A stretch of 64,000 bases of DNA from positions 4,248 to 68,247 of the forward strand of contig JAHFFE010000004.1 in the NCBI GenBank assembly GCA_023248155.1, given 5' to 3'. Under the pieces are notes generated by a model. The model searched no databases. It had not been told where the DNA came from and saw only the letters and a program-made list of their open reading frames with translations. Shown one piece after another: positions 3,001 through 24,000 of the stretch; within the stretch, counting starts at the first letter, position 1; each line of letters opens with the position of its first letter. This DNA is from Candidatus Omnitrophota bacterium (lineage in GTDB: Bacteria > Omnitrophota > Gorgyraeia > 1-14-0-20-64-10). Both the position numbers and the translations under genes were made by a program.

Positions 3001-6000
3001 TGACCTTTGACAAAGCCACGCTGGATGTGCGATCCGTCACGCTTTATTCGGGCTTGCCCGGCAAGGAACGCATCACGTCGGTGACGACTTACAAGCTGCC
3101 GGATTCCAGTTCGGCCACGCATGATTTCCGCACGCGTATGCTGGCCGATATCAATCACGACGGCATTGTAAACAATTACGACGTTTATTTGCTGCAGCAG
3201 TCGATCAACGTGCTGGGTTTTGGGATTCCGGCCTCCGGTACCGGCGTGGCCGTGGGCTTGCGTGATCTGAACGGCGACGGCCGCGTGGATGCCCAGGACG
3301 CCCAGGCGCTGGAACAGGCGGTCAATGCTTTGCGCAGTGTTTCTACCACCAATCTATCGGCACTGCTTTCCGGCGCCGTCATGCAAGTGGATGCCAACGG
3401 CGATGGCGTCGTCGACCAGGCGGAATTAAATGCTTATGGCACAGCGGTACGCAATTATGTAGACGTGGATTTCAGCGGCAGTGTGGGGGCGGGGGATATT
3501 CAAATGATCCAGCGCGCCATGCTGGCCCTGTCGAATTTCGATTCCGACGGCGACAGCGTCAGCGATCTGGCCGAAACCTTTGCCGGCACGGATCCACTCA
3601 GCCCGGTCAGCGGCCCGGATACGGATGGGGACACGATCCCGGATACGGTTGAAATGTCGCTTGGTTCTAACCCGTATGACAGCGCGGATACGCCCGCGAC
3701 CATGATCGATTCGGACCGCGACAGCCGCAGTGACGCCTATGAAAATGCGGCACATACGGACCCCAACGACGCGTTGGAATATCCGGGCAATGCGATTGAT
3801 TCCGATTTTGACGGCTATTCCGATAATGTGGAAACGCGTTATGCGCATACAAGTCCGCGCGATAACTCGGATTTCCCCGGAACCAGCGTCGATACGGACG
3901 GCGACGGCTATAGCGATTCTTATGAACGTCTGACCGGAACGCGTTTTGACGCGGGCGGGGCAAGTGATAATCTGGGCTCGGCAAGTTATCGTGATCAAGA
4001 TGTGGACGGCTTCAGCGATCTTTATGAAAAATTCAGGGGCACGGATTTCAAAGATGCCCGGGATACGCCTGAAGTTTCGACCGACACGGATGCCGACGGC
4101 ATCAGCGACGCTTTTGAATTAAGACTGGGCTCGAATCCGTTCAACGCTTCCGACCTGCCCAATGCGGCCTGGACCGGACCTGCGATCGATGCGGATTCCG
4201 ACGGTCTCAGTGACGCCCTCGAATTATTTGCCGGCTCCAATCCCTTTGATTCGCGGGATATTCCGGATTTGGCGACTTACCGGCCGGTACGGGATACGGA
4301 TCTGGACGGCGTAAGCGACAGCCTTGAACTTCACTATCACGTGAATCCCTATGATGCGTTGGACACGCTCAACTCCGCACGCACGGGGATGGCCAATCCC
4401 GCATTGCAGGATCCGGACGGAGATTTGTTATCCAGCAGTCTTGAACTTTTTATCGGGATCAACCCCAATGATTCCGCGGATCAAGCTGCGGGTGATTTGT
4501 GGGTGCTGGGGATGTCCGGCGCCGGGGTGATCCAATACACGTTAGAAAGCGCGGAAGGTCAATCCATCTATGATCTGTATCGCACGATTCTCGGCCGCGA
4601 TCCCAAAAAAGGCGAGTTGATCCGCGATCTTGTCGATCTCCAGTCCGGTAAAATCACTTTGGAAAGCTTGAAAACGCAGATGCTCTCCTCGGAAGAATAT
4701 GCCGAAACGCGCAGTCTGATGGCACGTGTTACCCACGCGGTCAGCGAAACCCTGCAGGCCTATACGGGCATGCAGCGCGCCGAACAGATTGCTTTTGCGG
4801 CCGGCTTCGGCATTTCTGCCGCCATGGCCGCCAGCCTGAATTTAGATTCGGTTTCTGCGATTGTCAGTTACCTGACGCAGCAAAGCCTGCACTTTGGCGT
4901 CAGCGCGTTTACGGCACTGACATTCATGTTTGAAAAACACGGCGCTGAGGAGTTGGCCTATGACGAATTGGCGCGCCGTGCGCTGCTGACGGATATTTTG
5001 GCCGGCGTCCTTAGGCCCGAAACCCAGGGCGAATTGGTCTTGTCCGCGTTTGCCCTTCAAAAAATAGCCGAACAGGCGGGCTTGAAACTGGCCGGACGGC
5101 AGGCGGCGTTTGAAGACCTTTCGCGATTTAACCTGCCGGCCATCATTCATTTGGACGGCGATCACTTTGCGGTGCTTGAGACTGTGAACGGCGAAACGGT
5201 AGCCATCCGTGAATATACCGGCGATTTGTTTGAACTTTCCAAAACTGAATTCCGCAAGCATTGGGATGGTTTCATCATGGCTCCGCAGAGTGCCTCTGAA
5301 CAAGGCCTGTTGGATGACGCAGCGCTCAAGCTGATCCGCGGGGCGGACATGGTTTTCCGTCTCTATCCTATGACGGATGCCGATGGCGACGGACTTAGCG
5401 ACAGCCTGGAAACCGCGTTGAAAGCGGCAGGCTATGACGTCGATCCCAACCGCGCGGATAATAAAAATATCATTGATTTTGATTTGGACGGTGACGGCGT
5501 TTCAGACCGCGATGAATTGCAGCTGGGAACCAACCCGCATGACGCCGCGGACAAACCCAAGGCCGATCTTTCCGGCCCCGAAACCGACGCCGATGGCGAC
5601 GGCTTCAGCGATAAACTCGAACTAGCGCTTGGAACCAGCCCGTCGCAGGCAGCGGATAAACCCAATGCCTCCAGGACACGGCCCGCCGTCGATCAGGATG
5701 CCGACGGCACAAGCGATATCCGCGAATTGGAACTGGGAACCGATCCGGCCGACGCGTTCAGCCGGCCGTCAATGGACAGTGACGGCGACGGCAGCAGCGA
5801 TGCGGCAGAAAAGACAGCCGGAACCAATGTCTATGACCCGGCAGATTTTACGGGCAGTAGTTCGTGGAGGGATTCGGACGGCGACGGTATTTCTGATTCG
5901 CGTGAAAAACTGGAAGGCACCGGCCCGAATGACGGGGCGGATTATACCGGCGGTCCGAATACGCGTGATTCTGACAATGACGGCTTCAGCGACCGCTATG

Positions 6001-9000
6001 AAGCCGCGCAGGGAACCGATCCGACTGAACGCAAAGATACGCCGCGTTTTAAGGTCGATAGTGATCAGGACGGGATCAGCGATTTGCGCGAAAAGAAACT
6101 GGGCACGAACTGGCTTGACCAGGCCGATCTGCCTGGGAGCGCCATCGATACGGACGGCGACGGCGCTAGTGACAGCCAGGAAAAATTACTACACACCAGT
6201 TACACCGATGCGGCGGACGCGCCGGCCACCAAGGTGGATGCGGACGGCGACGGCTGGAGCGATACGCTGGAAATGCGCCTTGGCACAGACCCGTTCAAAG
6301 CGCTGCAGAATCCGGGCATGGATTCTGACGGAGACGGGATCACGGATCTGGACGAGCGCCGCCTTGGTTCGAATATGTACAGCTCAAGAGAACAGCCGGG
6401 TAATTTTACCGACACTGATTTTGACGGCCGGAGCGATACGCTTGAAATGCTGGATGGCACCAATCCCGAGGACGCTGCGGATTATAAGGGCGCGCCGGGT
6501 TACGCGGATACGGACCGCGATGGCACCAGCGATGCGTATGAAATATTCCTAGGTCTCGACCCGAAGAATCCCTCTTCCAATCTGCGCACGGATACGGACA
6601 AAGACGGCATCCCGGATGTTGTGGAGAAAAAACTGGGTGTGGATAAAGACACCGACGGTGACGGGCTTAAGGATTGGGATGATCCGGATTCCGACAACGA
6701 TGGTTTCTCCGATGGGTACGAAGTCAGAGCCAATACCGATCCGCGCTCGGCGGGCTCTAAACCGCAGCGTCCCGCACTCTCGTCGGAAGCTGGCTGGGCC
6801 ATCCAAAGAGCAAGTCTTATTGCCGGTGGAAGTTTAGGGTATGCCGTCAATCTGAGCGCAATGCTGTATGCGGCCCTGGAAGAAACCCCGGTACAGGCCC
6901 AAATGCTTGCCGCGATTGTAGCCGTCCGCTCTCTTGAGGCCATGACAGCGCTGCTGGAAGGGGAGAGGAATTTCCTTGTGCCGGCCGACAAAGACGCGGT
7001 GGCGCAGATCATCTTACGTTTAACAGATTTGAAAGAGCCGGGTATGGCTGCCAGCATTGCGGTCCAAGCCCAAGACCTTGCGCGAGGCTTTATCAACCGT
7101 TATCAGCTGATGGGCTATCCGGCACCTGAGACCATAGCTAGGGCCGCGGATACCGTGATTTTAATGTATGCGCTTACGGTAGAAATCGACCCCCCTCTTG
7201 CAGCGACGGAGGCGGCCATTGCCAAAGCCAGGGAAGCGGCCTTTAATTTGGCGGAATTGATTCCGGGTTTTGACGCAAAAATGATCGAAGCGCAGTTTGA
7301 AAAACTGGCAAAGATCCGTGCGGATGCAATTGCAGCGGCAGCCGCGATGCAAGCGCTCTTAGCAGGTTTAGCGCAATCCCTGACAGTAAAAATTCAACCA
7401 GGCTCCGATGCCACGGAAGCGGTGGTCGCTGAGGCTAAAGAACTTGTCGCCGATTTGGCAAAATTGATTCCGGGTTTTGATGTGGAAAGAATCGAAATTG
7501 AGTTTGACAATTTAGAAGAAGCCCGCGCGAATGCTGCAAGCAATCCGGCAGCGGCCGCGGCCGCGTCGTCCCGCATTGAAACGCTGTTATCCGATATCAC
7601 GCAAGCCCTGACCAAAGAAATTAAACCCGGTTCAGATGCGACGGAAACAGTCATTGCCAAAGCCAAAGAAGCTGTTTTAGATTTGGCGGAATTGATTCCG
7701 AATGCTCCGACGGAAAACATCGAAGCCCAGTTTAAAAAGCTGGCAACGGTCCGTAAAGATGCCATGGCTGCCGCCGCTGCCGCCGGGACCCTGCAATCCG
7801 ATATTTCAACGGCCGGCAGCCCGAATGCTGTAACCGCCAAAGGCGCGGCGCTGGCCGCCCAGCTTACTGCGGAAATTTCCACGGCGGATACCGTGTCCGA
7901 ACAGGCGCCGGTGACGGCGGCGGTAATCGCGGCTTCGTCCTTGCAGACGCTGGCAGCCATTCTCAGTGCCGAGAGTATGCCGCAGGTTGTCCGTGATCGG
8001 GCCGGCGAGGCGCTTGTGCGCGCAGCCCAAATTGCATCTTCGGCGCAAGCAGCTTCGGCCGTGGCTAGCGCCAAAGAAGCGGCGGATTTGGCTCAAAGCC
8101 TGTTGTCCCAAGCGCGGGATTTGGATGCGGCTGTACCCGCGGCGGCCGCTGTCGCAGCCGATACGGCGGTTTTGGCGCAGGCTCTAGCCCAAGAACTTCA
8201 GCCCGGAAACCCTGCGAGCAAAGCGGCCATTGCAGCCGCCGCGCAAATCACAGCCTATTTAACCCAACTGACGCCCGGCTTCAGCGAGGACAGCGCGGCA
8301 ACGCTGCTGCAAAATCTTTCAGACGGAATGAGTTCGGGAATTACAACATTTGAGACCAAAGCCGCGCTGGCGGCCAAGGCTGTCAGCCTGGCGGCTGAGT
8401 TGGCTGAATCTCTGTCCACGCAGAGCCAGACAGCCGCAGTGATTGCGGCCCAAGCAGCAACTCAGGCCGTGGTTTCACTGGCTTTGGCGGCCGAGGAACT
8501 TTCCGCGGCCGGCCTGCCGGAAACCGTAAAATCCGCAGCGAACGCCGCCGCGTCGCGGGCTGCGGCGTTAGGCGCAAGTCTGGCCGGATCTTCAGTGACG
8601 GCCGAACGAGCTTCGGCCGCGGCGGAAGAAGCCGGTGCGCTGATTACAAATCTGGCGGCGCTTGTGGATGAAAATACGGGGTCTGTGCCGCCGGCCGTTC
8701 TGCGGGCGGTGCATGCGGCCGAATTGTCACAAGAGTTGATCGAGGCCGCCGTCCAGGATCGTATGGAGAATACCGCAGGCCTGGCGGCAGAAATCGCCTT
8801 GAATATGACGGCCTCTGCGCCGGGATTTGCGCCTGCCGGGATTGTTGAAGCCATGAACCGGCTGGTTCTTTCCGTGGTGGACGATCAGGATGGAGACGGC
8901 GTCAGTGATGCGCAGGAAACTGAACTTGGCTTGGATCCGCTTAAAGCCGACACGGACGGCGATGGCTTTGGCGACGGCGAGGAATTGTCGTTGGGTACGG

Positions 9001-12000
9001 ACGGCCGGGATAGTTCGAGCAGCGCGCGCGATTATGGCCGCTTCCAGTTGACGCCGCAATCGCTTGCGATTGCGGATATCGACGACAACGGCCTTGTCGA
9101 TCAGGCCGATTTTGCCATCCTGCATAATTTATTAACGAACTTCATCGACATCGACCGTTCCGGCACGCTGGATGAAGGTGATATTCAGCGCGAAAATGAG
9201 ATTGCGCGTTTCTTCAGCCTGGCCGCCAGCCAGCAGCAGCTCGACCGTGCCAATGTCAATGGTGATGATGTTGTTGACGACAAAGACATCGAGGCGATGG
9301 AGGCGGTCCTTAAGTATTACAAAGATGTCAGCGGCGACGGGGTGGTGAGTATGGAAGATGTTGCGATTCTGGACCGTTTGAGATCCCTAGCGGTGCCGAT
9401 CACGCCGGCCGAAGCCCGCAAAGCCGATGTTAACGGGGACGGCGTGATCAACCGGGACGATCTGGAGATGATTGAAGATATCCGCAAACGGCTGGTGGAC
9501 ATGAATGACGACGGCAAGGTGGATTCAACGGATATCGAGCGTTTCCGTGAAGTTCTCGAAGCCTGGAAATTAAAAGTGACGTCGCAGGAGCGCAGTCTGG
9601 CTGATTACAACAAGGATGGCGTCGTGGACGCGTTTGACCGTTTCGCACTGCTGAATGACCTTAAGCTAATGCAGGATGTCAACGGTGACGGCAGTATCGA
9701 CGGCATTGACATTCGCCGCATTGAAATGCTGGTCGGAACGGACAAACAATTTCAGGACATTACCGTGGCCATGGTCAACCGTTCCGACTTCAATGCCAGC
9801 GGCCTGATTGAGGTCGAGGATTACAATGCCATCCGCGATGCTTTCGAGCATACGGTCAATATTGACGGCAATGCCAGCGTGGATGCGGCCGACCTTGAGC
9901 GCCTGAAACTGATCATCACCTATGTCCGGGACGGCGTAGACCCGGAAGAATTGGTGCGCGCCGACGTCTTTCATGACGACCAACTCACCAAGGCGGATTA
10001 CGAGCACTGGAAGATCGCTTATGACACGCTCTATGGCCCAGGCGCCAAGCCTTTGGCGGATTTTGACGGCGATGGCAAGGTGACAAGTTTCGATCTTAAC
10101 CTTTTATCGAATCTGACGGCGCGCAATGCCGATCAGCAGCTTTTGCGTGACGCCATCCGCGCGGATGTCAACGGCACGCGCCTGATTGATCCGGCGGATT
10201 ACCGTTTGGTCAAAGACAACGTGGACACGCTGATTGACGTGGACGGCAGCGGCAAGACCACGAGCGCGGATCTTGACCGCATCGTCAAGATCATGGATCT
10301 GAATGACAACGCGCTCAGTTTCAGTGCAGAGACCGTGCGCCGCGCCGATCTGGACCGCGACGGGACGGTCAGTCCCGCCGACAGTAAGGCCTTCAAAGAC
10401 GCGCTTCTGCTGCTGTATTCGGGCTGGGGGCAGCCGAAGATTGATCTTAACGGCATTGATGTGAACCGCGACGGCATTTATGAACGGACCGGCGACCACA
10501 AAATCGATATCCTGGACATTCAGGAAATGGACAATATCCGCGATTTCCTTGAGTTCAAGACCGAGACGGATGCCGGGCCGCTGGAAAATTACGACGTGGA
10601 CGGAAACGGCACGGTCAATGATGCGGACCGCGATGAAATCGTGCGTAATCTGGAGCGGCTCAAGGACCTCAACCATGACCGCGTCATTAACCTCAAGGAT
10701 AAAGAGCGCCACGAATTGATCATTCACAACATTGCCGACGGTTATGTGGATCTGAAGTATTTTTATACGACGTCCGATGAACTCCTGCGTGCCAATCTAG
10801 AAGGCAATGACAATGATATTGACCAGAATGACTATGAGGCCCTGCGCGCGGGCGTGAATAGTTTCTCGACGGAATCCCGTTTTGACATTGATAACAACGG
10901 CCGGGTGGACCGCGAAGACCTGTACCGCATGAAATTCGTTCTGGAAAATCGCAGCCGCAATCAGCTGGTTAAAGCGTCTTATGTCGTCAAGGCGGATCTC
11001 AACAATGATGGCAAGATTTCGCTGGCGGACCGCACTCTGCTGCAAAATGCCATTCAGACCGGTTCAACACAGACGGCGCTCTATGACATCAACGAAGACG
11101 GCAGTGTGAACCAGGCTGACGGCGATACGCTCTTCCACATCTGGAAATACCTGGATTCTCGCGATCTGGTCAACGCTGACGTCAATCATGACGGCAAGCT
11201 GACGGATGCAGACGCTAACTTGCTGGAGAGCAAAATTCAGGCTGGCGGAGCGGACCTTCTGTTTGATATCAATGGCGATGACTTGATCAATGGCAATGAC
11301 GTGCTTGCACTGCGCAATATCGCTTCGCGCTGGGCCGTGCCTGGGATTACGCTGGCAGACCTGCGCCTGGCGGACGTAGACCTTGGTGTTGTGACGGGCA
11401 ACGGGCTCTTGGAAAGCGAAGATTTGACCGTGTTTGGCGCGGCCTATGACAAAATCATCCGCCTGGATGTTGACGGCGACGGCGTATTGACCGGCAGCGA
11501 ACTGGTCAAAATCAACGAAGTGCTCGGCGTCGTTCTTGGCCGGCGTGTATTCCCGCAGACGATCATTGATAAGGCCGATGTCAATCGCGACGGCACGGTC
11601 AACTCCGCCGATCAGGACATGACAGATCTTGCGCTCAAGCGGATTGCGGGACTTTATGATCCCGAACTAGAAAATGTGGAGGAGGCTAAAACCAAGATCG
11701 ACCGGATTATCCGTTTCCTGGATCTGCAGGCCGCGGCGGTTCTGCGCACCAAGGCGGATAAAGATCAAAACGGCGTGACCTCCGCCGGGGAATTGAATGA
11801 TCTGGCCGCGAGCCTGACCCTGCAAGGGTATGCCCAGGCGGAAGTCAACCGCATCATGACGGATGTCAATGCCGTACTTACGGATGCGGAGAAAGAACGC
11901 GGGGATATTGACCATGACGACGACGTGGATACGACAGACCGCGACCTTCTGGCCGCAGCTCTGAGCAAGGCCGCGCTCTACGATGTCAACGGCGACACGG

Positions 12001-15000
12001 TCAATGATCAGGCCGACGTGACGCGCATGACCGAAATCCTCAATGCCATTGCCGCGGGCATCATTCCCGATTATGTCTTCAACGGCAATCTGAATAAAGA
12101 CCTTCTGATTTCTCAGCCGGATGCGGATCTGATGGCGGAGCTGCTGCCGGAAGCCGCGGATGTCGACGGCGACGGCACGGTGGACCTGGCCGACTATGAG
12201 CGGCTTAAACAGCTGGTGGCTTTTGCAACGAACGCAATCTCGGTGGCTGAAATCCAGCGCGCCGATGTCAACCATGATACGTTTGTGGATCAGCACGACT
12301 ATGATGATCTCGACGCCGCGTTAGCGAGTGCGGCCCGCTTTGACGTCGACGGCAATCAAAAATTTGAACAGCGCGATGTCAATGCCGTCAGCGAAATGGT
12401 CGCCAAGCACATCACTTCAGCCACGCTGACCCGGGCCGATCTCAATGCGGACGGCCGGGTTGATCATCTGGATGCGCGCGCGTTGAGCGAGGCGCTGGGC
12501 CGGGGCGTGGACGTCAACGGCAACGGCAGTTTTGATGCGGCCGATGTCTACCGCATTGACGACGTGATCCGCGCCAACCGCATCGCGGCCACGGATTATG
12601 AATACCAGCTGCTGGACGTCAATGCCGACGGCTTGCGCAATGACCGCGATTTGAGCGACTTTATCGATGCCGTGCGCCGCGTGCCGTCGGACTTTAACCA
12701 AGACGGCCATTACGACAAGACGGATATGGAAGACCTTCAGGAGATTGTGACCCGCATGGCTGCGGCCGGCGTAACGCTGGATATGTTTGCCAAAGCCGAT
12801 GTCGACGGCAACGGCACGATCGAAACGGCGGACAGCACGAAATTGGAACAAGCCTTGAAATATGTCAAGGATATCGACGGCAACGGCATTGTCAACGAAC
12901 TCGACCTGACGCGCCTGCGTGATTTGCTGGAGTACCAAACTCTGCAGACCGGCCTGCGCCGCGATGCGCTGGCGAGTATGGATTTGACGGGGGAGGGCCA
13001 ATTGACGACGGCTGACCTTACCAAACTGCAGGGCTGGCTGGATAATCCCGCGTCGGCCACGGCGCTTGAGAAACACCGCGCCGATATCACGGGCGATGGC
13101 CGCTTCCAGGCCGATGACTACGATGCGCTCAATGCGATTTTGCAGATTTTGAAGAAAGACTTAAACGGCGATCTGCGCGTGGACCGCGCCGACCTTCAAT
13201 TCCTGATGGACCGCATTGCCGAAAGAACCGCGCTGCTGGCCAAATTCGATGTCAAAGCTGACAACGCGCTCACCGCCGGAGACACAACGGTCTTTGATAC
13301 GCTGCAGGCGGATTTTGGCGGGCTTATTTCGCCGCGGCGTTTTGATCTCAATAACGACGGCGCGGTCAATGCAGATGATGACAAACTGCTGGCCGATTAT
13401 GTCAGCGGACGCAGAACCGTGACGCCTGCGCTTTTTGATGTTCTCAATCTGAACGGCGATACCCTGGTAGGGCCTGCGGATCAAACCCTGCTGCAGGATG
13501 CGATCCGTATCCTTAAGGCCGATTTCAACGGCGACTTCCTGGTGGATGCAGCCGACCGCGGCTTGCTGGCCGATGGCGTGACGGGCGCGATCAAACGCTT
13601 TGAAACCCTTGACCTGACTTATGATTTTAACCAGAGCCAGACATTGACCGCGGATGACCGCGGGCCGCTCTTGGAAACCATGCGGGCGTTTGTGCGCGAT
13701 ATCCGGCCGTACAGCCGCGCGGATGTCAACCGCGATGGCGTCATCGGTGAAGAAGAACGCGCGGCCCTGCTGGATACAATCCGCTATTACGTGGATCTGG
13801 ACGGCATTGGCGGCGTGAATCAGGGCGATGTCCAGCTGCTGGAGCGTGTGCTGGCCTACCGCCGTTTGAATGTTCAGGATGCCGAAAGAGACCTGGCGGA
13901 TATCGACGGCGACGGCACGGTGGAACCGGACGATATCACGCAGCTGCAGGAAGGGCTGGCTTTGTTGAAACGCGCGGACATCACCGGCGACGGCCAATTG
14001 ACCAGCGCGGATACGGCGCGCGTGACGCAGATCGCCGATTTTCTGCGCCTTAATCCGGCGGCGGCCATGCCCTTTACGCTGGCGGAACTGAAGGCCGCGG
14101 ACGTGAACCTGGATGACGCTGTGGATGAAAAGGATATCGCCGTGATTCAGGACTATCTCAACAATCGCTATGACATCAACCGCAGCGGCGCGATTGATCA
14201 GACGGATCTGACCCGCTTTGCGAATATCATCAAGTACTTTGAATTGAAGGTCACGCCGGCAGATTTGATCCGGGCGGACTTTGACGGCGACGGCGTGCTG
14301 GAGGATGAAGACTTGACGATGCTGCGCGAGTATCTGCCGCGTTTTCAGCAGGGGGACATGAACGGCGATCACGTGCTTGACGGCGCTGATTTGGCGATCA
14401 TGCAGGATATTACGCGCTTCCTGGATGTGAAGAGTTTCGGCTTTAAGCAGATCGGCGGCCAGGATTATGACAACGACGGTATCGTGGATGTCTATCACAC
14501 GCTCTCACCCCTGCACCGCGCTGACATTAATCACGACGGCAAGATTACGGTCGAGGACCGGCATGAAATTGAAACGCTGATTCTGAGTCTGATCGATATC
14601 AACAACGACCAGGAGATTGACGAAGACGATCTGTCGCGCATGGCGGAAATTTTGGAAGCCGTAAAACTGAACGTCAAACAGTATGATCTGGCCAAGGCCG
14701 ATGTGGACGGCGACGGTTTCATCACGGGTTTCGACATTACGGAACTGGATAACGTCCTTGGCATTTTGCACGAATATGACCTGGACCGCGACGGCGATAC
14801 GGATGCGGACGACATCAAGATCGTCACGGATATTTTTGACAAGGCCCAGGCCATGCCGTTTACGCTGGAGGAACTGCGCATGGCCGACCTAAATCAGGAC
14901 GGCATTGTGGATGCGCGTGATCAGGCCGCCGTGCTGGACGTGCTTTCGAAGATTCGCGATGTCAACGGCGACGGCGTGACGGACATTTCGGACGTTGAAA

Positions 15001-18000
15001 AACTGGATCAATTACTGCGCATCACCGAGCTTAACCTCAAGCCTTACGAAATCAGCAATGCGGATGTGGACGCAAACGGCTTTGTGGATGAAATGGACAA
15101 ACTGCTGCTCGAACAAAGCATTGCGCTCTTCAGCAACGCCGATAATCTCGATGTGAACCGCGATGGCAAGGTCAATGAACTCGATGTGGAAGCCGTGCAA
15201 AGCCTGATTGCGGCTATTGCCCGCCAGGAGCAGATTCCGCTTGAGGAATTGACGCGCCGCGATATTACCCGGGACGGCACGGTCGATGACAAGGACGTGC
15301 AGGAAATCCTGAAAATTCTGCGTTTGCATACCGACGTCAACGGCGACGGCATCATCAACCAGGCCGATGTCAACCGTATTTGGGACGTGCAGAAATACCT
15401 GGCTTATAACATCAAACCCTCGGAACAAGCGCTGGCCGATGTCAATGAAGACGGAATCGTGGATACGGAAGATATTCTGGAACTGCGCCGCCGCCTGGCA
15501 GTTTTGCGGCGCGGCAATTTTGACAACGACCAGGACGTGGACGCCGATGACCTTGCCATCTTGCAAGCCACGGTGACTTTTGTCGAATCCATCAACCCGG
15601 AACTGCCCGGCCTGGCCCAGCGCATTGACTTTGACCGTTCCGGCCTGATCGATGAAACCGACCGTGCCCGGCTGCTGCAGATCTTGAGTTACCGGATTGA
15701 TTTGACAGGTGACGGCCTTGTGGATTCCGAGGATATCGATTATCTCTACCTGGCGATCGATGCGCTGGCCGCCGGCATTGCCAATCCGAACAAAGATATC
15801 GACGGCAATGGCGTGGTGGAAGGCACGGAGGATACCAATAACAACGGCATTCTGGATGAAGGCGAAGATCTGGATGCGGACGGCGTGCTGGATCTCGGAG
15901 ACGTCGGGCTGCTGAAGCAGAGCGTCGAGACCCTGCGTCAGTTTGATATGAATAGCGACAATGTCGTGGATCAAAGAGACCTGGATCTCTTGATGGACAT
16001 TATTTCTTATGCCTACGCTGACGGCGCGGTCTATGCGCGCGAATTCCGCCAGGCGGATATCAACGGCGACCGTGCGGTCAACGGCGCGGACAAGGAACTG
16101 GTTTTGGCCGCTGCCGGCAGCTGGTCTGTCCGCAAAACCGCCGCGCAGACCGCCGCGCGATTTGCCTTCACGGCCGGAGATCATCAGACGCTTTATTCTT
16201 CCGTCAACAATGCGTTCGTGGAATATGAACTGGCTTTGTCGCCGGCGGGCACCGGCACCTATGAAGTCGGTCTGTCCGCGCAGACGCATAACAATCTGAC
16301 GCCGCCTGCGGGTTACCAATACCGTTTCGATGCCTATGTGGACAATGTCTATCAGGGGCGCATTGAAATTCCGGCCTCGCGCACTTTAGCCACCGAAGGC
16401 TTCCTGAAGCTGGACCTCGAGCCGGGCCGCCATAACCTGCGGCTGGTTTGGACCAACAAAGAAGCGGGCACCAATGTCGAAATTAAAGAAATCTTTGCGC
16501 GCAATATCATGGACATTGCCGGCGCTGAAGGCTCGGCCTTTGCGCCGGATGGCCAAGTCAACGGGAATGATACCGATCTCATCGACCGCGTCATGGCCTT
16601 TTTCCCGAAAATCGACGTCAACGGCGACGGCTGGTTCCATCTGGACGATGCGCGCCAATACCGCCTCGACATTGCCCAGGCGCGCGTGCTCTACGGCTTA
16701 AATGACCGCGGCGACCTCAACCTGGCCGATGCGCCGGATGCCGCCGGACTGCTGGCGCGCTGGGACTTAAACCGTGACGGCGTCGTCAACCGCGCGGATG
16801 AAGACCATATGGAACAAATTGCCTTTTCAATCTATCAGGTGGACCGCTTGAACGGCGCGGACATGGACGGCAACGGACGCATTACGTCCCGGGATACGGA
16901 ACTGCTTGAAGAAGCCGTGCGCGCCCTGGTGGACGTGGACCAAAACGGCATCGTCGATGATAAAGACGTTTTCCGCATCCAGGATGTGATTGATTTCAAA
17001 TTGCTCAACCTCAAAGACGGCGAAAGCGAGCGCGCCGACATCAACCATGACGGCCGCGTCGATCATCTGGATAAAGATATTTTGGAACTCAACCTTGGCC
17101 TGATGCAGCAGTATGACGCCAACCGTGACCATGTCACCGATGCGCGTGATCTGAATCTGATCATCAATACGCTCAAGCTTTTTGCAGCCGACAGCGCCAA
17201 AATTGCGCTGGCGGATCTGAATAAAAACGGGTTTATCGACAGCGAAGACACCGCCCTGATTAAGGACAGTTTTTACCGCGGCGTGGATCTCAATGATGAC
17301 GGGCGTATTGATACCCGCGATGTCGAAATCGTGCGTGAGCTTAAAGCACGCGGCCTCTACAACACGCAAGCGGATCTGGAACCTGCGGGAGCGCCCAATG
17401 GCGTCATCAATCAAGCGGACATCGACGCCTTTGAAACCATTGTGCGCAATCGCGTGGATATCAACGGCGATGGGGTCATGGATGTCATTGATTTTGCCTA
17501 CACCATGGTCGAATTGGACCGCACGGTCTATGCCCAAGCCGATAAAGACGGCGATGGCGAAGTTACGGCCGCGGATCTGGAGGCGGTCAAGGCCGACCTG
17601 GCGCGGCTGGACGCCAACATGGACGGCATCGCCGACGTGTCTGATTTTGATCTTTATGAAGATGCAATTCGTCTGGTGTTGAATAACAATTTGACGGCCA
17701 ACGGCGCCACGGAAGCGCAGATCCTGAAGGCCTTGCGTATTTTGAAACCCACGCGGCCCAGCGATGACAGTCTGAGTTCGAACCTTTCCGTGCGCGGCAA
17801 TTTTGACGACGCGGCGATTTTGAGTTTGTTTACGCCGCAGGCCGGCGCCTGGCGCCAGGAAGGTATTTTTGCGGTGCAGTCCAATGCGCAAACCGAGGCC
17901 TGGAGCGAGGCGGGCGCCGCGGATTGGCGCGACATCGCGCTCGGAGCGGATCTGGAATTCCGCAGTTATAGCCGCCAGGCTGGGTTCCGTTTCCGTGTTC

Positions 18001-21000
18001 AGAATGACCGCAATTATTACTCCGTCATGCTGGCCGGCGACCGGTTGATTTTGGAAGCCGTGCGCAATAATGTGCGCAGCGTCCTGGCTGAAACGCAGCT
18101 TTCTGAGGCCACGCAGAATGAATCGCGCTATTACTTGGAAGTTTCCGCCATGGGCACCGAACTTCATGTGCGTTTAAACGGCCGTGACATGCTGACGGCA
18201 ACCGATGACAGTTTTGCTGCCGGTAAAATTGCCCTGCAGAGCACGGACTCCTACGTGAAATTTTCAAATCTGGCGCTGGATGCGGATGCAGACCTGGAGT
18301 ATTTGAGAACCACGCACATGCTCAAGACCGATCTTACGGGTGATGGCATCGTCAATAGCGCGGATGAGAACCTGCTGGCGGCGATTCAAGCGCTTGGACT
18401 CACCGACTTGAATTTGGACGGAAACGTGGATGCGGCGGACCGCAACTTGCTGCGCCTGAGCGCGTTTGCGGATTTTGACGGCGACACCCAGCTGGAACTT
18501 GAAGATTTGGATGCCGCAAATCTGCTGGTGCTGGATGGCGACGGCAACGGCCTTATGGACGGCCGCGACCTGACCGTGGTGGACGGCTACGTGCATCTGG
18601 CCGATCAAATTCAGTACGAAGTCTTTTCGATTCTGGATCGTGCGGATGTGGACGGATCGACCAAGGCCGAGATGGCGGATCTGACCAAGGCCACCCTGAT
18701 GGTCTGGCGCTATTTTGATTTTAACGGCGTTGATGGAGTTGACACGGATGACTGGGAGCGCTTGAAGATCGTGATCGCGGCCCGCCGCTTGTTCCCGAAT
18801 ACGGTCGTGATCGAAGACCTGATCAAGAAAATTGATTTTAATAAAAATGGCCGAGTCGATGATGCCGACAAAGCCCAGCTGGCGGATAACATCCGGGATT
18901 TTAACCTCGTCGATGTGAACCAGGACGGCATCATCAACGATAAAGACGTCAAGGCGGTCCAGGCCATTGTGGACACGATTTTATATATTCAGGAACTGAA
19001 TCCGTCTTCGATTATTTCTGAAGACCTTACCGGTGACGGCCTGATCGATATGCGGGATGTCAAGGAGGCGCTGGCGTTTCTGAATACGCTGGTGGACCGC
19101 AGCCCTCAAGACGGCATCGCCGATGCCTCAGCCATGGATGCCTTGCTGGAAGACTTGAAATCGATTGCGCTTTTCCAGCCGCCGCCCGAGGTCTGGGAGG
19201 CCGCGGATCTCAACAATGACCATCAAGTCGATATCGCCGATATCCAGATTTTCCTCAGCCGGCTGACAAGCTATGTTTTTACCGACCTCAATGATAACCA
19301 GCAGGTGACCAAGCAAGACCTTGAAATTGCGCGCACCTTGATTAATTACGTCAATCAATCGGTGCGCTATAGCGCCCGCCAGCTTGTGCTGGCGGATCTG
19401 GACGCCAGCGGCCAAGTGGATGCGGCCGATGCGCAGATCGCCGATGCGTTCCGCGATATCGACGGCAGCGGAACGGTCGAAGAACGTGACCGGCTGCTGG
19501 CGCAATACCTGGTCTTCCGCAGCCGGACTGATCTGGATGGCGACGGTGTGTTTGCGGCGAGCGACCGCGCGCTGGTGCGCTCGATGCTCGGCGCCCAATC
19601 ACTTGTGCAGTTCGGTACGCAAGCCACTCAATCGACGGCGCTCGAGCCGCTGGGCAATAACCTGATCGCCCAGGCGGCCGGCAGCCACTTTACCTACCGC
19701 TTTGAGATCACCGAAAGCGGTCTCTATGACGTCGGCGTTTCATTGAAGGCCTACGATAAAGTCGTGGCTGCGGGCTATGAATATCCGGTGGATGTTTATG
19801 TGGATGGTGAAAAGAAGGGCGAAATCCGCGTGGCCGGATCGAGCGTGGAATTTAACAGCGCCTCGCTCAAGCTGGAACTTCCCAAGGGGCCGCATCTGGT
19901 GAAGTTTGTGACGCGCACGCCGTCTGCGGATAATCACAAGATTCAGATGCACGAAGCGTTTGCACGCGCTGCCGCGGACTTAAATCAGGACGGCCTTGTG
20001 GACGTCAACGATGTCACGCTGATCGAGATGATTGCCGGCCGTTCGCTGGCAAGTGCCAAAGCCGATGTGACCGGCGAAGGCGCGGTGGACAATGCTGATG
20101 TGACTAAAATTCAGGAAATGACCGCGCAGTTCGCGCAGGCTTCACTGGCTCTGACCTATACGGATGCCGAAGGTCAAGTCCGGACGCTGGACAAGAACGG
20201 CGTTCTTGGCGCCCTGGCCTCCTTCGAAGGACTTAAACTCGATGGCGCGGATCTCAAAGTGCTGGAAACCTGGCGCGAGAATTTCAATACCAGCCTGGAA
20301 ACCAGTTTGTTGTCGCTTAACTCCCAGGCCCGCATTGAAGACGGCCGTCTTCAACTGTCGGCGCCGGCGGTGCCGGGCACGGCGGCCAAAGCGGAGTTCG
20401 GGTTTGCGGATTGGAAGACCGCAGGGGTTGAAACGCAGGTGCGGCTCGGTGGCGCCGGTACGGCGGAACGGTCGGCGGGCGTGATTCTGCGCGTTCAGGA
20501 TGAAAACAATTTTGTGCGCGTGCGTATCGTGCGCACCGGCGCGAGCCGCGACGCGCTGCGCGTTGAAAAAATTACCAACGGGGCTGTCACGCTGCTGTTG
20601 CCTGAGGTCCTGCTGGGCGCCGAAGTGCTGACCGATCCGTTCTACGGGTTGAAAGTTGAATTGGGCGCCGACACACTCAAAGTTTTTGTCAACGGCGCGC
20701 TGAAAGCGGAAAAAACAGGGTTAGGCGAGCCGGTTCAGGGCCGTTTGGCACTTTTTGCCGCCAACACCGAGGCGTCGTTCGATTCGCTGAGTGTGACGGC
20801 GGACATCCGCTTTGCGGATCTCGGCCCGGGCCTGCTTGTCCGCGATTTGGATAAAGACGGCAAACTCACGGCTTCCGACGATGCCATCCGCGCCGCGCTG
20901 ACTGCGTTCATGCAGGAAAATCAAAATACGGAATTTTTGCTGAATCTGGGCCGCGCGGATATCAATGCGGACGGCCGGTTAAATACGGAAGATGCCCAGC

Positions 21001-24000
21001 TGGTCAGCGACCGGATCAATGAAACGACGATTCGCGCCCGCGTGGACTTAAACAATGATAGCGTGCTGGAAGGAGCCGAGGCGCAGCGAATTGCGCAGGC
21101 CATCCGCGGCATGCAGGACGTCAACGAACAAAACGGCATTACTTCCGCGGATGCGGATCTGATCAAACAGATGGCGGCGCTGTCGCTCTTCCGCGACATT
21201 CCGGCCGGGGATTTAAACCGCGACGGCCTGGCCGGCAATCTGGATGCGGAGGAAATCAGGAAGTTTCTGGATTCGCTCTACCGCGGCTTGAATGTCTCAA
21301 GTCAGGAGCAGGCGCTGGCCGACGTCAATCAGGACGGCGTGGTCAACTATGTGGATATCGGCCTGCTGCTCAAGGCCAATACGCTTTATTTGCGCAGTGA
21401 CATTAACGGCGATGCTTCCGTCGATGAATTGGATCTTCTGCGTATGGACGGCATTTTGGAAGCGCTTTTCTCCGACGAATTGATCAACCGTGAAATCATC
21501 GCGCGCGCAGACCTGACGGGCGCGGATATCAATGCCGACGGCGTGGGCGACAAGGACGGTTTTATCCGTGCGGAGGATGAAGCCCTGTTTGCGAAATCGC
21601 TGGCGCTGTGGCGCGATCTTTCCGGGGACGGCAAGGTCGATGACAAGGACATCGCGTTGATTCAGCAGGGCCTGGATTTTCTGGCCAAGACCGGCGGCAT
21701 TTTACCCTCAGTTTCCAATTTTAACGGCGCGATGGTGGCGGCCGCGCTCAGACAGCTTAACGCGATAACTTACCGCGAAAAATCCCAGCGGCTTTTAACG
21801 GCCATGCTGTCGGAGCAAAACTTCGAGACCGATACCACGGGCTGGAGCTTTGACACCACCGGCTCCTGGCGCCGGATTGCCGGCCAACTGGTGCAGGAAA
21901 AAGCCATTACGCAGGAAATGACGAAAGCGACGATGGCCGGTACGGTCGAGAATTTCAATCTGAGCGTCAACTTCCGTTTTGACGGCACGAGCGGCCAGCC
22001 CGGCCGCGGCGGGTTTATTTTCAGGCTGGATCCTGTGACCGGCGATCATTACGACATTCTGGTAGACGGCGGCGTTTTCACTCTGCGCAAATTTACGGGC
22101 GGGAAGTATCAAAATCTGGCCACGCATGCGATTCAAGCCGACGAGGATTTCCATACGCTGGTTCTGCGCGCACACGAAGACAAGATTGAGGCTGTTTTGG
22201 ATGGCAGTGAAATTCTCTTCAAGATTCAGGATGGCGATCTGGAACGCGGCGGCCTGCAGATGTTTACCGGCCGCGGCACGATTGGCCGGTTTGAATCGGT
22301 GCGCGTCGACAACGTGGCCTTTCCGCCTGTCCAGGCCGGCTTGGCGCTCTTGGAACCGGTCGCGATGGAACAAAGCGTTGAAGACTTTGTCCTTGAAGCG
22401 GATCTGACGCTGGACGGCAGCCAGGTACCGCCCGTGATGACCGGGATGCCGCAGCCCAACGAAGGCCGCCAGGCCGGCGTCTTGTTTGCCTCGGCGGCCG
22501 ATGGTTCCGGATACCGCCTCAATTTCCGGCCCGACAGCGGCAAGATCGAACTTTACCGGCTGCAGGACAGCCAGGCGGAACGCTTGGGCTACGGCGTGAT
22601 TCCGGTCAGCGGCTGGGATAAACCGTATCATCTGGAAATCAAGCGCTCCGGCGGCCTGATCCGCGTTTTCGTCAACCACATGGAACTGATCAGCGTGGAT
22701 GACAGAGTTTTGGGCGGCGGGACGCTCAGTTTCTTTAGTGAAAATCAGACCGGCCTTGCGGCGGCCAACGTCCAACTGCGCAAAATGACGGCCTTTGACG
22801 ACATCGCCCGCAGCCTTTCGCTGAGCAAGGATTTGACCGGCGACGGCACCGTCAACGGCACGGATTACATGGTGCTGGCGGACCTGAATTCGGTGGTGAT
22901 CTCTGATTACAACGGCGACAAGATCCTGGATGAGCGCGATGCCGGCCTGTTCATGGCCCTGGCTTCCGGCCGGCTGGATGTCAACGGCGATCTTGCGCTG
23001 ACGCCGCAGGATTCCAGCGACTATGCCGACGCTTACCGGGGCCATGTGGACATTGATCAGGACGGCTTTGTCGACGCCCAGGATTTAGCGCGCCTGCAGT
23101 TTTTACGCCAGACGATCCGGGATTTCGGTGCGGCCGCGACGCCGCAGACTTTCTCGATGACGGATCTGCAAAAAGCCAATATCAATCAGGACAAGAGCGG
23201 GGCCGTCAACCAGGCGGATCTGTTCCTGCTGACCTCGGCCCACAATCTGATTACCAAACTGGTCTCCGCGCCTCTGATGTTTGACCTGCCGAGTTACCGG
23301 GCGATGACGGCTGAAGCCAAAGCGCAGTATGTGGCTGATTTTAACGAGGCCAAGAAAACGCACTACACAGCGGAGCAAATATCCTTTGCCGACGAAATCG
23401 ACTGGCGCGGCGACGTCAATGGCAGCGGGCTTACCGATCAAACGGACTTTGACTTGCTGCGTACGATCATTACGCTGACCCACACGGGCGCGGACGTCAA
23501 CAAGCTAAAACATGCGGACATCAACCGCGACGGCACGATCGATGCGGCCGATGTGGATTTTTACCGCAGTCTGCTGCCGGATCGAGTCGATGTGGATGAA
23601 AATGGTGTGGTCAATCATGACGACTATCTGGCCGTGCGCCAGGCCTACTTTCGCAGTGTGCTGGCCGATCTCAATGGCGACGGCTCGGTCGACGGTTTTG
23701 ATTTAGACAGCCTGCAGAACCTGCTGGGTCTGAAGGACGTCCGCATAGACGCGCTCAAGGCCTCCGACTGGCAGGGACGCGTCTCGGGCAGCGGTTTTGC
23801 CATGAGCGGCTCGGAAGCGGTGGCGGAGTCCGATGCCTGGATTGAATTTCCGCTGGCGATTGCCAACCGCGGCACGTATGACGTGGGTCTGGATGTGATT
23901 AATTTCGAAAAATTTGACCTGCCGGCGGGCTATCACTACCACTTTGAAGTCGAAATCAACGGCGCGCACGCGGGGGATATTTATCTGCCGGCATCGGCCG

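What the first reader, a model, noticed from the sequence alone, without database searches (positions are those of the whole stretch)
9070..16120. About 7 kb uninterrupted array of dockerin/EF-hand-type calcium loops (about 70 here, about 200 or more across the window)
Canonical dockerins occur once per protein, as a duplicated ~22-aa Ca2+-binding loop-helix pair. Here the D-x-N-x-D-G-x-[IV]-[DN]-x-x-D loop recurs every ~25-35 aa for thousands of residues, for example ADVNGDGVINRDDLEMIEDIRKRLVDMNDDGKVDSTDIERF. Further arrays lie at 16.5-17.8, 18.3-19.65, 20.8-21.7, 22.8-23.8, 38.4-39.3, 44.4-45.3, 45.6-46.2, 46.85-49.76 and 50.5-51.35 kb. This implies a very large Ca2+-loading capacity and Ca2+-dependent folding or rigidification of a fibre. 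It could instead be a poly-dockerin scaffold able to bind many cohesin-like partners, which would invert the usual cellulosome logic.
Basis: partly seen in the sequence, partly recalled or inferred. Interest (0 to 1): 0.75.

Follow-up and report, generated by a model that had tools for sequence, protein, structure and literature searches.

The report
Giant protein's 39-unit calcium-loop (dockerin) array
The flagged 7 kb really encodes 39 back-to-back dockerin-type calcium-binding modules inside one enormous gene that fills the whole 64-kb window, but it belongs to an already described class (the "Dockerin-type giant proteins" of Omnitrophota bacteria) and most likely acts as a calcium-stiffened stalk, not as a docking platform.

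Summary
The whole window is one open frame (+3, nt 3-63998, 21,332 codons, no stop, cut at both ends). Nt 8946-16112 encode 39 abutting dockerin units (69 complete Ca2+ loops; Pfam Dockerin_1 E=3e-118). Loops alternate between 24-aa and 35-37-aa spacing, and units are mostly joined by 3-5 residues. There is no DNA-level repeat; units are about 26% identical.

The loops are dockerin/EF-hand-type, not RTX or low complexity. The architecture (dockerin + bacterial TSP3 + DUF1080 + C39-like) is the published Omnitrophota "Dockerin-type giant protein" class, and the closest relatives are Omnitrophota MAG fragments collinear at 43-54% identity.

Between orthologues the Ca2+ ligands and helix core are conserved, while the canonical cohesin-contact positions are the least conserved. 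No cohesin was found in the ORF or in relatives' loci. I therefore favour a Ca2+-dependent structural extender of a surface attachment protein over an inverted-cellulosome scaffold.

Structure prediction was locally confident but did not reproduce a compact dockerin fold, so the fold test is inconclusive. Verdict: a new member of a known kind, of moderate interest.

The parts
3..63998 (+). One uninterrupted open reading frame (21,332 codons) cut by both window ends: a partial giant gene of more than 64 kb
   Evidence: 0 stops in frame +3, against 749 and 1,077 in the other + frames. The minus-strand ORFs are antisense artefacts.
8946..16112 (+). Main array: 39 abutting two-loop dockerin units (69 loops with a full Ca2+-ligand set), with alternating 24 / 35-37 aa loop spacing. 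This is the flagged finding.
   Evidence: Pfam Dockerin_1 E=3e-118; custom HMMs; PDB dockerin sequence matches.
3144..3521 (+). Isolated pair of dockerin units upstream of the TSP3 tracts
3798..4328 (+). Bacterial thrombospondin type 3 (TSP3) Ca2+-binding repeats, 6 motif copies
   Evidence: Pfam TSP3_bac E=3e-49 for chunk 3003-6002; motif map
5040..5300 (+). C39-like domain with no cysteine (approximate bounds)
   Evidence: Pfam Peptidase_C39 E=4.6e-13; PDB 3b79 toxin-secretion ABC protein domain; no Cys between aa 220 and 8652
5376..6722 (+). TSP3 repeat tract, 15 motif copies
16545..17600 (+). Dockerin array, 6 units
18132..18275 (+). Partial DUF1080 / 3-keto-disaccharide hydrolase-like (lectin-fold) match
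   Evidence: Pfam PF06439 E=1.5e-6, 28.8 bits (cut-off 26.8)
18327..19589 (+). Dockerin array, 7 units
20841..21674 (+). Dockerin array, 5 units
22902..23726 (+). Two pairs of dockerin units
25212..26336 (+). TSP3 repeat tract, 11 motif copies
   Evidence: Pfam TSP3_bac E=4.7e-42
27006..35042 (+). Zone of single dockerin units spaced about 110-260 aa apart, separated by unannotated repeat segments (a second internal repeat family)
38424..39074 (+). Dockerin units (3)
44382..45227 (+). Dockerin array, 5 units
45618..46097 (+). Dockerin array, 3 units
46275..46835 (+). Weak, sub-threshold DUF1080 / 3keto-disac_hyd-like match that spans almost the whole profile (positions 5-186 of 187)
   Evidence: E=0.0038, 17.7 bits, below the 26.8-bit cut-off
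46830..49622 (+). Dockerin arrays (10 + 2 + 1 units)
50523..51383 (+). Dockerin array, 5 units

Best explanation
The region is the longest of many arrays of dockerin-type (F-hand, EF-hand clan) Ca2+-binding modules in a partial ORF of more than 21,332 aa. The ORF belongs to the Omnitrophota 'Dockerin-type giant protein' class.

Shown:
- There are 39 two-loop units joined head to tail with almost no linker, giving about 70 complete Ca2+ sites in 2,390 aa. Asp+Glu make up 21% of the array and Pro 1.5%.
- Unit number, order and length are conserved in orthologues.
- The Ca2+ ligands and the helix core are conserved, but the exposed helix faces are not.

Inferred mechanism:
- The chain stays unfolded at the very low cytoplasmic Ca2+ concentration and folds unit by unit once it is outside the cell, as isolated dockerins and RTX repeats are known to do.
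- It would then form a long, Ca2+-stiffened stalk. At about 2.5-3 nm per unit the array would be roughly 100 nm long (my own estimate, not computed).
- The stalk would space and project the lectin-like (DUF1080/LamG) and other modules of a surface attachment protein towards a host or prey cell.
- On this reading the dockerin units act as structural spacers rather than cohesin receptors.

The confidence of 0.55 is for the mechanism. The identity of the feature (a dockerin-type array in an Omnitrophota-type giant protein) I hold at about 0.9.
For: Identity:
- Pfam Dockerin_1 E=3e-118, and Dockerin_1 in most 1,000-aa chunks across the ORF.
- PDB dockerins are the best sequence matches.
- The ligand positions are conserved.
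- The helix-loop periodicity is reproduced by AlphaFold2 (the two-unit model has pLDDT 84.7).

Class:
- TSP3_bac, a C39-like domain, one above-threshold DUF1080 match (and a second, weaker one) and dockerin arrays sit in one ORF. This is the architecture of West-Roberts et al. 2023 and of the dockerin+TSP3 cluster in the 2026 preprint.
- The ten best-matching relatives looked up include eight labelled Candidatus Omnitrophota/Omnitrophica, one unlabelled JGI protein and one labelled Ca. Uhrbacteria. Several are collinear with the ORF at 43-54% identity.

Structural role:
- Units abut with mostly 3-5 aa gaps and no Pro/Thr-rich linkers.
- Orthologue alignments have almost no indels: 2,781 of 2,796 residues of P0002 align.
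- Paralogous units are only 26% identical, with no recent duplication. The array has therefore been held at fixed length and order for a long time.
- Per-position orthologue identity is 0.96-1.0 at ligand positions 1 and 12 and 0.5-0.6 at core positions, but 0.23-0.37 at exposed positions 10, 11, 14, 17, 18 and 21. The background is 0.47.
- No cohesin was found in the ORF or in relatives' loci.
- A solved tandem dockerin (8x39) packs its two units into a body of limited mobility (PMC12484212).

Likely extracellular: only three weak hydrophobic segments in 21,332 aa, and a net charge of -1,409.
Against: - No experiment or transcript supports expression, export or Ca2+ binding.
- The five-unit AlphaFold2 model was poor (pLDDT 53, pTM 0.24).
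- The two-unit model has pTM 0.43, so the orientation between units is not defined. That does not support a rigid rod.
- Fast-evolving exposed positions are equally compatible with diversifying selection on binding surfaces.
- The rest of the genome, where cohesin-like partners could lie, could not be examined, because the source contig was not found.
Confidence: 0.55

Rival explanations
1. Poly-dockerin scaffold (inverted cellulosome). Each unit, or subsets of units, binds a cohesin-like module on separate proteins of the cell, or of the host or prey, so that dozens of partners assemble along the giant protein.
For: - The units are genuine PF00404 members, and the family's one known biochemical function is cohesin binding.
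- At least one unit of a solved double dockerin binds cohesin (PMC12484212).
- West-Roberts et al. report beta-barrel modules flanked by dockerin-like helices in a protein of this class. The zone at nt 27006-35042, with single dockerin units between about 200-aa segments, could be analogous.
- Variation at the contact positions could encode many different specificities.
Against: - Contact positions 10/11 are not Ser-Thr-like and differ from unit to unit.
- They are also the least conserved positions between orthologous units. If each unit had a dedicated partner, the opposite would be expected.
- There is no cohesin Pfam hit or PDB sequence hit anywhere in the ORF or in relatives' contigs.
- With 3-5-aa joints between units, there is little room for about 39 cohesins of roughly 150 aa each.
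Confidence: 0.17
2. Variable adhesive surface. The exposed helix faces are themselves ligand-binding sites for host or prey surface polymers or proteins, and they evolve quickly under diversifying selection. The Ca2+ loops only provide the scaffold.
For: - Exposed positions evolve faster than the linker background (0.23-0.37 against 0.47).
- The class has been proposed to mediate attachment to host or prey.
- Omnitrophota are inferred to be host-dependent or predatory.
Against: - No test for positive selection was possible, because synonymous sites are saturated at about 50% amino-acid identity.
- Exposed helix positions are the least constrained in most helical repeat proteins, so no special explanation is needed.
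- Dedicated lectin-like modules (DUF1080/LamG) are already present for binding.
Confidence: 0.15
3. Ca2+ store, buffer or mineral-nucleating polyanion. The array exists mainly to sequester Ca2+.
For: About 215 complete loops plus 32 TSP3 motifs in the ORF, and a net charge of -1,409.
Against: - Strict conservation of unit order, unit length and the hydrophobic core between orthologues is not needed for bulk ion binding.
- The array is embedded among lectin-like and other modules typical of surface adhesins.
Confidence: 0.03
4. Not a real gene: an assembly artefact or a non-coding acidic low-complexity tract.
For: Published giant dockerin-type genes are said to be hard to assemble because of their repeats.
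Against: - There are 0 stops in 21,332 codons in one frame only.
- There is no DNA-level repetition.
- Independent Omnitrophota assemblies carry collinear orthologues at 43-54% identity.
Confidence: 0.01

Closest known systems
Omnitrophota 'Dockerin-type giant proteins' (West-Roberts et al. 2023, bioRxiv 10.1101/2023.11.21.568195; recovered as the dockerin+TSP3 cluster in bioRxiv 10.64898/2026.06.07.730766)
   Same: A huge ORF with many dockerin/EF-hand repeats and bacterial TSP3 repeats, plus DUF1080 and a C39-like domain. There are few transmembrane segments over the N-terminal bulk. The nearest relatives are Omnitrophota.
   Different: - The exact sequence was not found in any collection searched, and the closest fragments are 52-54% identical.
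- Here the C39-like domain lies in the first 10% of the visible ORF and has no Cys.
- No discoidin, ILEI, GNAT or SecA domains are seen in this window.
- In what I read of the papers, I did not see the 24/35-aa alternation, the 39-unit linker-free run, or the orthologue-based evidence against cohesin-type interfaces. The 2026 catalogue reports at most 15 Pfam copies per protein.
Cellulosomal type I dockerin (Pfam PF00404; e.g. C. thermocellum Xyn10B dockerin, PDB 1OHZ/2CCL)
   Same: A duplicated 12-residue Ca2+ loop plus helix, with D/N at positions 1, 3, 5, 9 and 12, Gly6 and a hydrophobic residue at position 8. The loops within a unit are about 35 aa apart. The sequence matches are significant.
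   Different: - There are 39 units in tandem instead of one C-terminal module.
- Successive units are fused, so that a helix leads straight into the next loop (24-aa spacing).
- The recognition residues are not conserved.
- No cohesin partner has been identified.
- The compact fold was not reproduced by the model.
Multi-dockerin proteins: the C. thermocellum double dockerin dDoc_0689 (PDB 8X39/8X3A), triple to septuple dockerins, and rumen 'polydockerins' with up to 13 modules
   Same: These are tandem dockerins with no other recognisable module. In the solved case the two units pack against each other with limited mobility. The function of the longer arrays is unknown.
   Different: The array here is 3-20 times longer, sits inside a protein of more than 21,000 aa, and comes from a non-cellulolytic lineage. 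In the double dockerin the two Foldseek-aligned units lie about 74 aa apart, whereas here the period is about 60 aa.
Ca2+-rigidified extender regions of giant RTX adhesins (tandem Ig-like domains of MpIBP, LapA and SiiE). This is a functional analogue cited from my own knowledge, not tested here.
   Same: Very long tandem arrays in giant, acidic, Cys-poor surface proteins. They need extracellular Ca2+ to fold and stiffen, and they project ligand-binding modules away from the cell.
   Different: The fold is unrelated (all-beta Ig-like against helical F-hand), there are no RTX nonapeptides here, and the secretion route is unknown.

Membership tests
Dockerin type I (Pfam PF00404, EF-hand clan) | Sequence match to the family profile above the curated threshold | tested here: met
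   386.4 bits against a 22.9-bit cut-off, with 14 independently significant stretches in nt 9069-16121. The family is also found in most other 1,000-aa chunks.
Dockerin type I (Pfam PF00404, EF-hand clan) | Two tandem segments, each a 12-residue Ca2+ loop (ligands at positions 1, 3, 5, 9, 12) followed by a helix, with loops about 33-35 aa apart | tested here: met
   Residue frequencies in A/B loops: D1 91-93%, N/D3 about 82%, D/N5 87-90%, G6 77-79%, D/N9 77-83%, D12 97-100%. The B-to-A' spacing is 35-37 aa. PDB dockerins align across this spacing. Helices follow each loop.
Dockerin type I (Pfam PF00404, EF-hand clan) | Compact three-helix dockerin fold | tested here: inconclusive
Dockerin type I (Pfam PF00404, EF-hand clan) | Conserved cohesin-recognition residues (positions 10/11, 17/18, 21/22) and a cohesin partner | tested here: not met
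   Positions 10/11 carry 0.75-1.3 bits of information and have no Ser-Thr consensus. Orthologue identity is 0.28/0.32 at positions 10/11 and 0.30-0.37 at 17, 18 and 21, below the 0.47 background. No cohesin was found in the ORF or in relatives' loci. The rest of the genome was not available.
Dockerin type I (Pfam PF00404, EF-hand clan) | Ca2+ binding and Ca2+-dependent folding | not testable with these tools
   Inferred only from the intact ligand sets: 69 in the array and 215 in the ORF.
Omnitrophota Dockerin-type giant proteins (West-Roberts 2023) | Many dockerin/EF-hand repeats together with bacterial TSP3 repeats in one giant ORF | tested here: met
   127 dockerin units. TSP3_bac E=3e-49, 2e-33 and 5e-42, with 32 TSP3 motifs in three tracts.
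Omnitrophota Dockerin-type giant proteins (West-Roberts 2023) | Accessory DUF1080 and C39-like domains, and few transmembrane segments in the N-terminal bulk | tested here: met
   PF06439 passes its cut-off once (28.8 bits) and gives a second, sub-threshold match (17.7 bits); PF03412 is found. Only three marginal hydrophobic segments are present.
Omnitrophota Dockerin-type giant proteins (West-Roberts 2023) | Length of at least 30,000 aa | not testable with these tools
   The ORF is cut at both window ends. At least 21,332 aa are shown, and the source contig was not found.
Omnitrophota Dockerin-type giant proteins (West-Roberts 2023) | Encoded by an Omnitrophota genome | tested here: inconclusive
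   The source is unidentified. Of the ten relatives looked up, eight are labelled Candidatus Omnitrophota/Omnitrophica, one (P0006, JGI) has no organism label, and one (P0012) is labelled Ca. Uhrbacteria.
RTX beta-roll repeats (Pfam PF00353 HemolysinCabind) | GGxGxDxUx nonapeptides forming a parallel beta-roll | tested here: not met
   No PF00353 hit in any chunk. The segment is predicted as helix-loop repeats with no strands.
Canonical EF-hand pair (Pfam PF13499 EF-hand_7) | Helix-loop-helix pairs matching the EF-hand profiles better than related families | tested here: not met
   EF-hand_7 passes its threshold (70 bits against 30), but it is far weaker than Dockerin_1 (386 bits) on the same residues. 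It belongs to the same clan, so this is a shared-ancestry signal.

The most novel reading that the evidence does not exclude
The linker-free dockerin chain is a new kind of Ca2+-driven mechanical element. One version: sequential Ca2+-triggered folding outside the cell acts as a ratchet that helps pull a polypeptide of more than 21,000 aa (more than 64 kb of gene) through its export channel. The other version: the array really is an inverted cellulosome that recruits dozens of cohesin-like partners, from the cell itself or from its host or prey, onto one molecule. Neither is excluded, because the fold, the partners, the secretion route and the rest of the genome could not be examined.
Probability: 0.12. 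Interest if true: 0.75.

Novelty: new member of a known kind. Interest (0 to 1): 0.4.

Why it matters
Omnitrophota giant genes are among the longest predicted in any organism, and their function is unknown. The dockerin-rich subclass is rare: the 2023 preprint had three incomplete examples.

This window adds more than 64 kb of uninterrupted frame and allows a clean dissection of its dominant repeat. It gives a defined unit with about a 60-aa period and fused joints, roughly 70 Ca2+ sites in the array and more than 200 in the window, and orthologue evidence that selection preserves the Ca2+ sites, the core and the array length but not the faces that dockerins normally use to bind cohesin.

That turns the question 'what are poly-dockerins for?', which is also open for the rumen polydockerins, into a testable choice between a structural Ca2+ stalk and a docking platform. 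It also provides ready-made fragments for biophysics. It does not reveal a new kind of system.

Tried and rejected
- Source hunt. All three attempts failed to find the source: a peptide-pattern scan of GTDB representative genomes (only TSP3-level similarity, best L001 = JBAYGD010000001.1), an exact 60-mer in the JGI metagenomes (0 hits), and a word-indexed protein search with 337 aa of the array (one weak hit, P0001).
- First alignment for structure prediction (A1). MAFFT aligned overlapping segments by their identical overlap. The alignment was still in module register, so I used it, but the five-unit model was poor (pLDDT 53) and I did not pass it to fold search.
- Four-module non-overlapping tiles gave only 8 rows and were dropped in favour of 45 two-unit tiles (A3).
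- RTX beta-roll, plain low complexity and a recent DNA tandem expansion were all considered and rejected.
- A higher-order super-repeat was rejected: unit identity is flat, at about 26%, for lags 1-8.
- Cohesin search. No hit in the ORF by Pfam or by PDB sequence search (one search was a frame error on my part).
- Neighbourhoods of relatives gave no outside context, because their contigs consist entirely of the giant gene.
- I first noted 'no cysteine'. That was a rounding artefact: there are 9 Cys.

Full report
**Observation**

The 64-kb window is a single open reading frame. Frame +3 (nt 3-63998) has no stop in 21,332 codons, while the other two + frames have 749 and 1,077 stops. The gene runs off both ends of the window. 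The many minus-strand ORFs listed mechanically are antisense artefacts.

The flagged interval translates into an uninterrupted series of D-x-N-x-D-G-x-[IV]-[DN]-x-x-D loops, each followed by a short helix. The counts are as follows.

| Measure | Flagged region / main array | Whole ORF | Shuffled control |
|---|---|---|---|
| Strict loop motif | 25 | 80 | 0 |
| Relaxed full-ligand motif | 69 | 215 | mean 4.9 (region), mean 21 (ORF) |
| Iterated loop HMM | 53 | 164 | not run |

**Anatomy**

- Loop-to-loop spacing alternates between 24 aa and 35-37 aa. The 35-37-aa pair is the canonical dockerin spacing: PDB dockerins 2y3n_B, 1ohz_B and 2ccl_B align across it.
- The 24-aa step means that the last helix of one unit runs straight into the first loop of the next. 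Gaps between unit envelopes are mostly 3-5 aa. Pro is 1.5% of the array and there are no Pro/Thr-rich linkers.
- Ligand positions 1, 3, 5, 9 and 12, Gly6 and the hydrophobic position 8 are strongly conserved. Positions 10/11 are not.
- The array is 21% Asp+Glu, and the ORF has a net charge of -1,409 and only 9 Cys.
- At the DNA level there is no tandem repeat. Units are on average 26% identical at every lag, with a maximum of 44% within the array, so there is no super-repeat and no recent duplication.

**What it is**

Pfam gives Dockerin_1 at E=3e-118 (386 bits, 14 independent stretches) for the region. EF-hand_7 is much weaker, at 70 bits.

Scanning the whole ORF in 1,000-aa chunks shows:
- Dockerin_1 in most chunks between nt 3003 and 54002, and again after nt 60003.
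- Bacterial TSP3 repeats. The tracts are at nt 3798-4328, 5376-6722 and 25212-26336.
- A C39-like domain at about nt 5040-5300.
- One above-threshold DUF1080/3keto-disac_hyd match (28.8 bits) and a second, weaker one (17.7 bits, below the 26.8-bit cut-off).
- No RTX repeats and no cohesin.

This combination is the 'Dockerin-type giant protein' class that West-Roberts et al. defined for Omnitrophota. They describe many dockerin/EF-hand and TSP3 repeats, DUF1080 and C39, three incomplete examples of at least 30,000 aa, and a proposed role in attachment to host or prey (bioRxiv 10.1101/2023.11.21.568195). A 2026 preprint recovers it as a dockerin+TSP3 cluster, with up to 15 Pfam dockerin copies per protein.

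**Relatives**

The source sequence itself was not found in GTDB representative genomes, in the JGI metagenomes or by a word-indexed protein search.

An exhaustive HMMER search of 1.84 billion representative proteins with a 23-unit profile (A2) found 20,130 proteins at E<=1e-3, 150 at E<=1e-30, and about two dozen with 20 or more matched units. The best hit, P0002, has 43 units in 2,796 aa.

I looked up ten of the best hits. Eight are partial proteins from Candidatus Omnitrophota/Omnitrophica MAGs, one (P0006, from JGI) carries no organism label, and one (P0012) is labelled Candidatus Uhrbacteria.

Several hits are collinear with specific stretches of this ORF:

| Protein | ORF stretch (aa) | Identity |
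|---|---|---|
| P0002 | 3693-6508 | 53% (2,781 of its 2,796 residues aligned) |
| P0014 | 3003-3738 | 54% |
| P0027 | 6985-7650 | 50% |
| P0025 | 15303-16259 | 49% |
| P0006 | 13572-17377 | 44% |
| P0012 | 4701-5606 | 43% |

Orthologous units are therefore about twice as similar as neighbouring paralogous units, and unit number, order and length are preserved. The array predates the divergence of these lineages and is held in place by selection.

Contigs of relatives are filled end to end by equivalent genes. JADGBR010000015.1, for example, is 69,855 nt and carries five abutting ORFs totalling about 23,200 aa. They gave no outside context and no cohesin neighbour.

**Mechanism**

Mapping orthologue identity onto loop and helix positions gives:
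- 0.96 and 1.00 at ligand positions 1 and 12.
- 0.5-0.7 at the other ligand positions and the hydrophobic core positions.
- Only 0.23-0.37 at positions 10, 11, 14, 17, 18 and 21, below the 0.47 background outside the loop-helix units.

Positions 10/11, 17/18 and 21/22 are the ones that contact cohesin in type I dockerins (established knowledge of the family). Selection therefore preserves Ca2+ binding, the core, and the length and order of the array, but not a cohesin-type interface. No cohesin-like sequence exists in the ORF by Pfam or PDB sequence search.

Isolated dockerins are known to depend on Ca2+ for folding, and the solved double dockerin 8X39 shows a low-mobility interface between its two units (PMC12484212). 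Taking these together, I favour a Ca2+-dependent structural extender. On this model the chain is unfolded at cytoplasmic Ca2+ levels and folds and stiffens outside the cell. It then spaces and projects the lectin-like and other modules of a surface attachment protein. This is analogous in function, but not in fold, to the Ca2+-rigidified extender regions of giant RTX adhesins (my own knowledge, not tested here).

The sequence facts are shown. Export, Ca2+ binding, rigidity and the roughly 100-nm length are inferred.

**Limits**

- AlphaFold2 on five units was poor (pLDDT 53, pTM 0.24).
- On two units, with a 45-row paralogue alignment, it was locally confident (pLDDT 84.7) but had pTM 0.43.
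- Foldseek ranked EF-hand proteins and dockerins first, including the double dockerin 8x39/8x3a, but without significance (E>=0.29, TM about 0.2).
- The fold test is therefore inconclusive, and the geometry between units, which is the crux of 'rod versus beads', is unresolved.
- Fast-evolving exposed positions also fit diversifying selection on an adhesive surface. I keep that, and the poly-dockerin scaffold, as live rivals.

**Comparison and novelty**

Multi-dockerin proteins are known: double to septuple in cellulosomal bacteria and up to 13 modules in rumen 'polydockerins' of unknown function. The Omnitrophota giant class is described in two preprints. This sequence is a new, divergent member, at most 54% identical to anything retrieved, and the 39-unit linker-free run is a quantitative extreme. 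The kind of system is already known.

In what I read of those papers, I did not see the following points:
- The 24/35-aa alternation with fused joints.
- The positional stability of the array between orthologues.
- The conservation pattern that argues against cohesin docking.
- The absence of any cysteine in the C39-like domain.

**Verdict**

This is a new member of a known kind, with interest 0.4.

Noticed in passing
window 3-63998 (+): The entire 64-kb window is one stop-free reading frame of 21,332 codons, cut at both ends. GC skew is positive in all but the first (near-zero) of the 2-kb windows, so cumulative skew rises almost monotonically. The 47 minus-strand ORFs of 150 aa or more in the mechanical list are antisense artefacts; one minus frame has only 157 stops.
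   Followed up: yes
window ~5040-5300 (+): The C39 peptidase-like domain (Pfam E=4.6e-13; best PDB match 3b79, the N-terminal domain of a toxin-secretion ABC protein) has no cysteine. The nearest Cys residues are at aa 220 and 8652. It cannot be an active cysteine peptidase, which bears on the published idea that C39 domains self-cleave these giant proteins. It resembles the inactive C39-like domains of RTX exporters.
   Followed up: partly
window aa 215/220, 18931/18936, 19004/19008, 19876/19881 (nt ~648-665, 56796-56813, 57015-57029, 59631-59648): There are only 9 Cys in 21,332 residues, and eight of them sit in four CxxxC/CxxxxC pairs. These could be small disulfide or metal-binding knots in otherwise unannotated sequence.
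   Followed up: no
window 27006-35042 and 62500-63998 (+): This is a second internal repeat family. Single dockerin units recur every 110-260 aa between unannotated segments of about 200 aa, and the same family reappears at the window's 3' end. It may correspond to the 'beta-barrel flanked by dockerin-like helices' ladder reported for a Dockerin-type giant protein, but I had no structure-prediction jobs left to test that.
   Followed up: no
window ~51400-61600 (+): About 3,400 aa with no Pfam family apart from one isolated dockerin unit near the start (nt 51939-52088), almost no internal repeats, and no PDB sequence match beyond the dockerin at its start. This is unannotated 'dark' sequence inside the giant ORF.
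   Followed up: partly
window 3798-4328, 5376-6722, 25212-26336 (+): Three tracts of bacterial thrombospondin type 3 Ca2+-binding repeats (6, 15 and 11 motif copies) add further Ca2+ sites outside the dockerin arrays. The first two flank the C39-like domain.
   Followed up: partly
P0012 (KKW34662.1), compared with window aa 4701-5606: A 900-aa partial protein labelled Candidatus Uhrbacteria (CPR) is collinear with part of the main array at 43% identity, like the Omnitrophota orthologues. The 5.9-kb contig is either misbinned or reflects transfer between phyla.
   Followed up: no
L061/L064 (JADGBR010000015.1, GCA_015231405.1, Omnitrophota MAG): A 69,855-nt contig is filled end to end by five abutting or overlapping same-strand ORFs (3,026 + 3,985 + 942 + 1,013 + 14,271 aa) with the same dockerin/TSP3/DUF1080 content. 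This is either a giant gene split by frameshifts or a true operon of pieces. L062 (JGI) shows the same overlapping-ORF pattern.
   Followed up: partly
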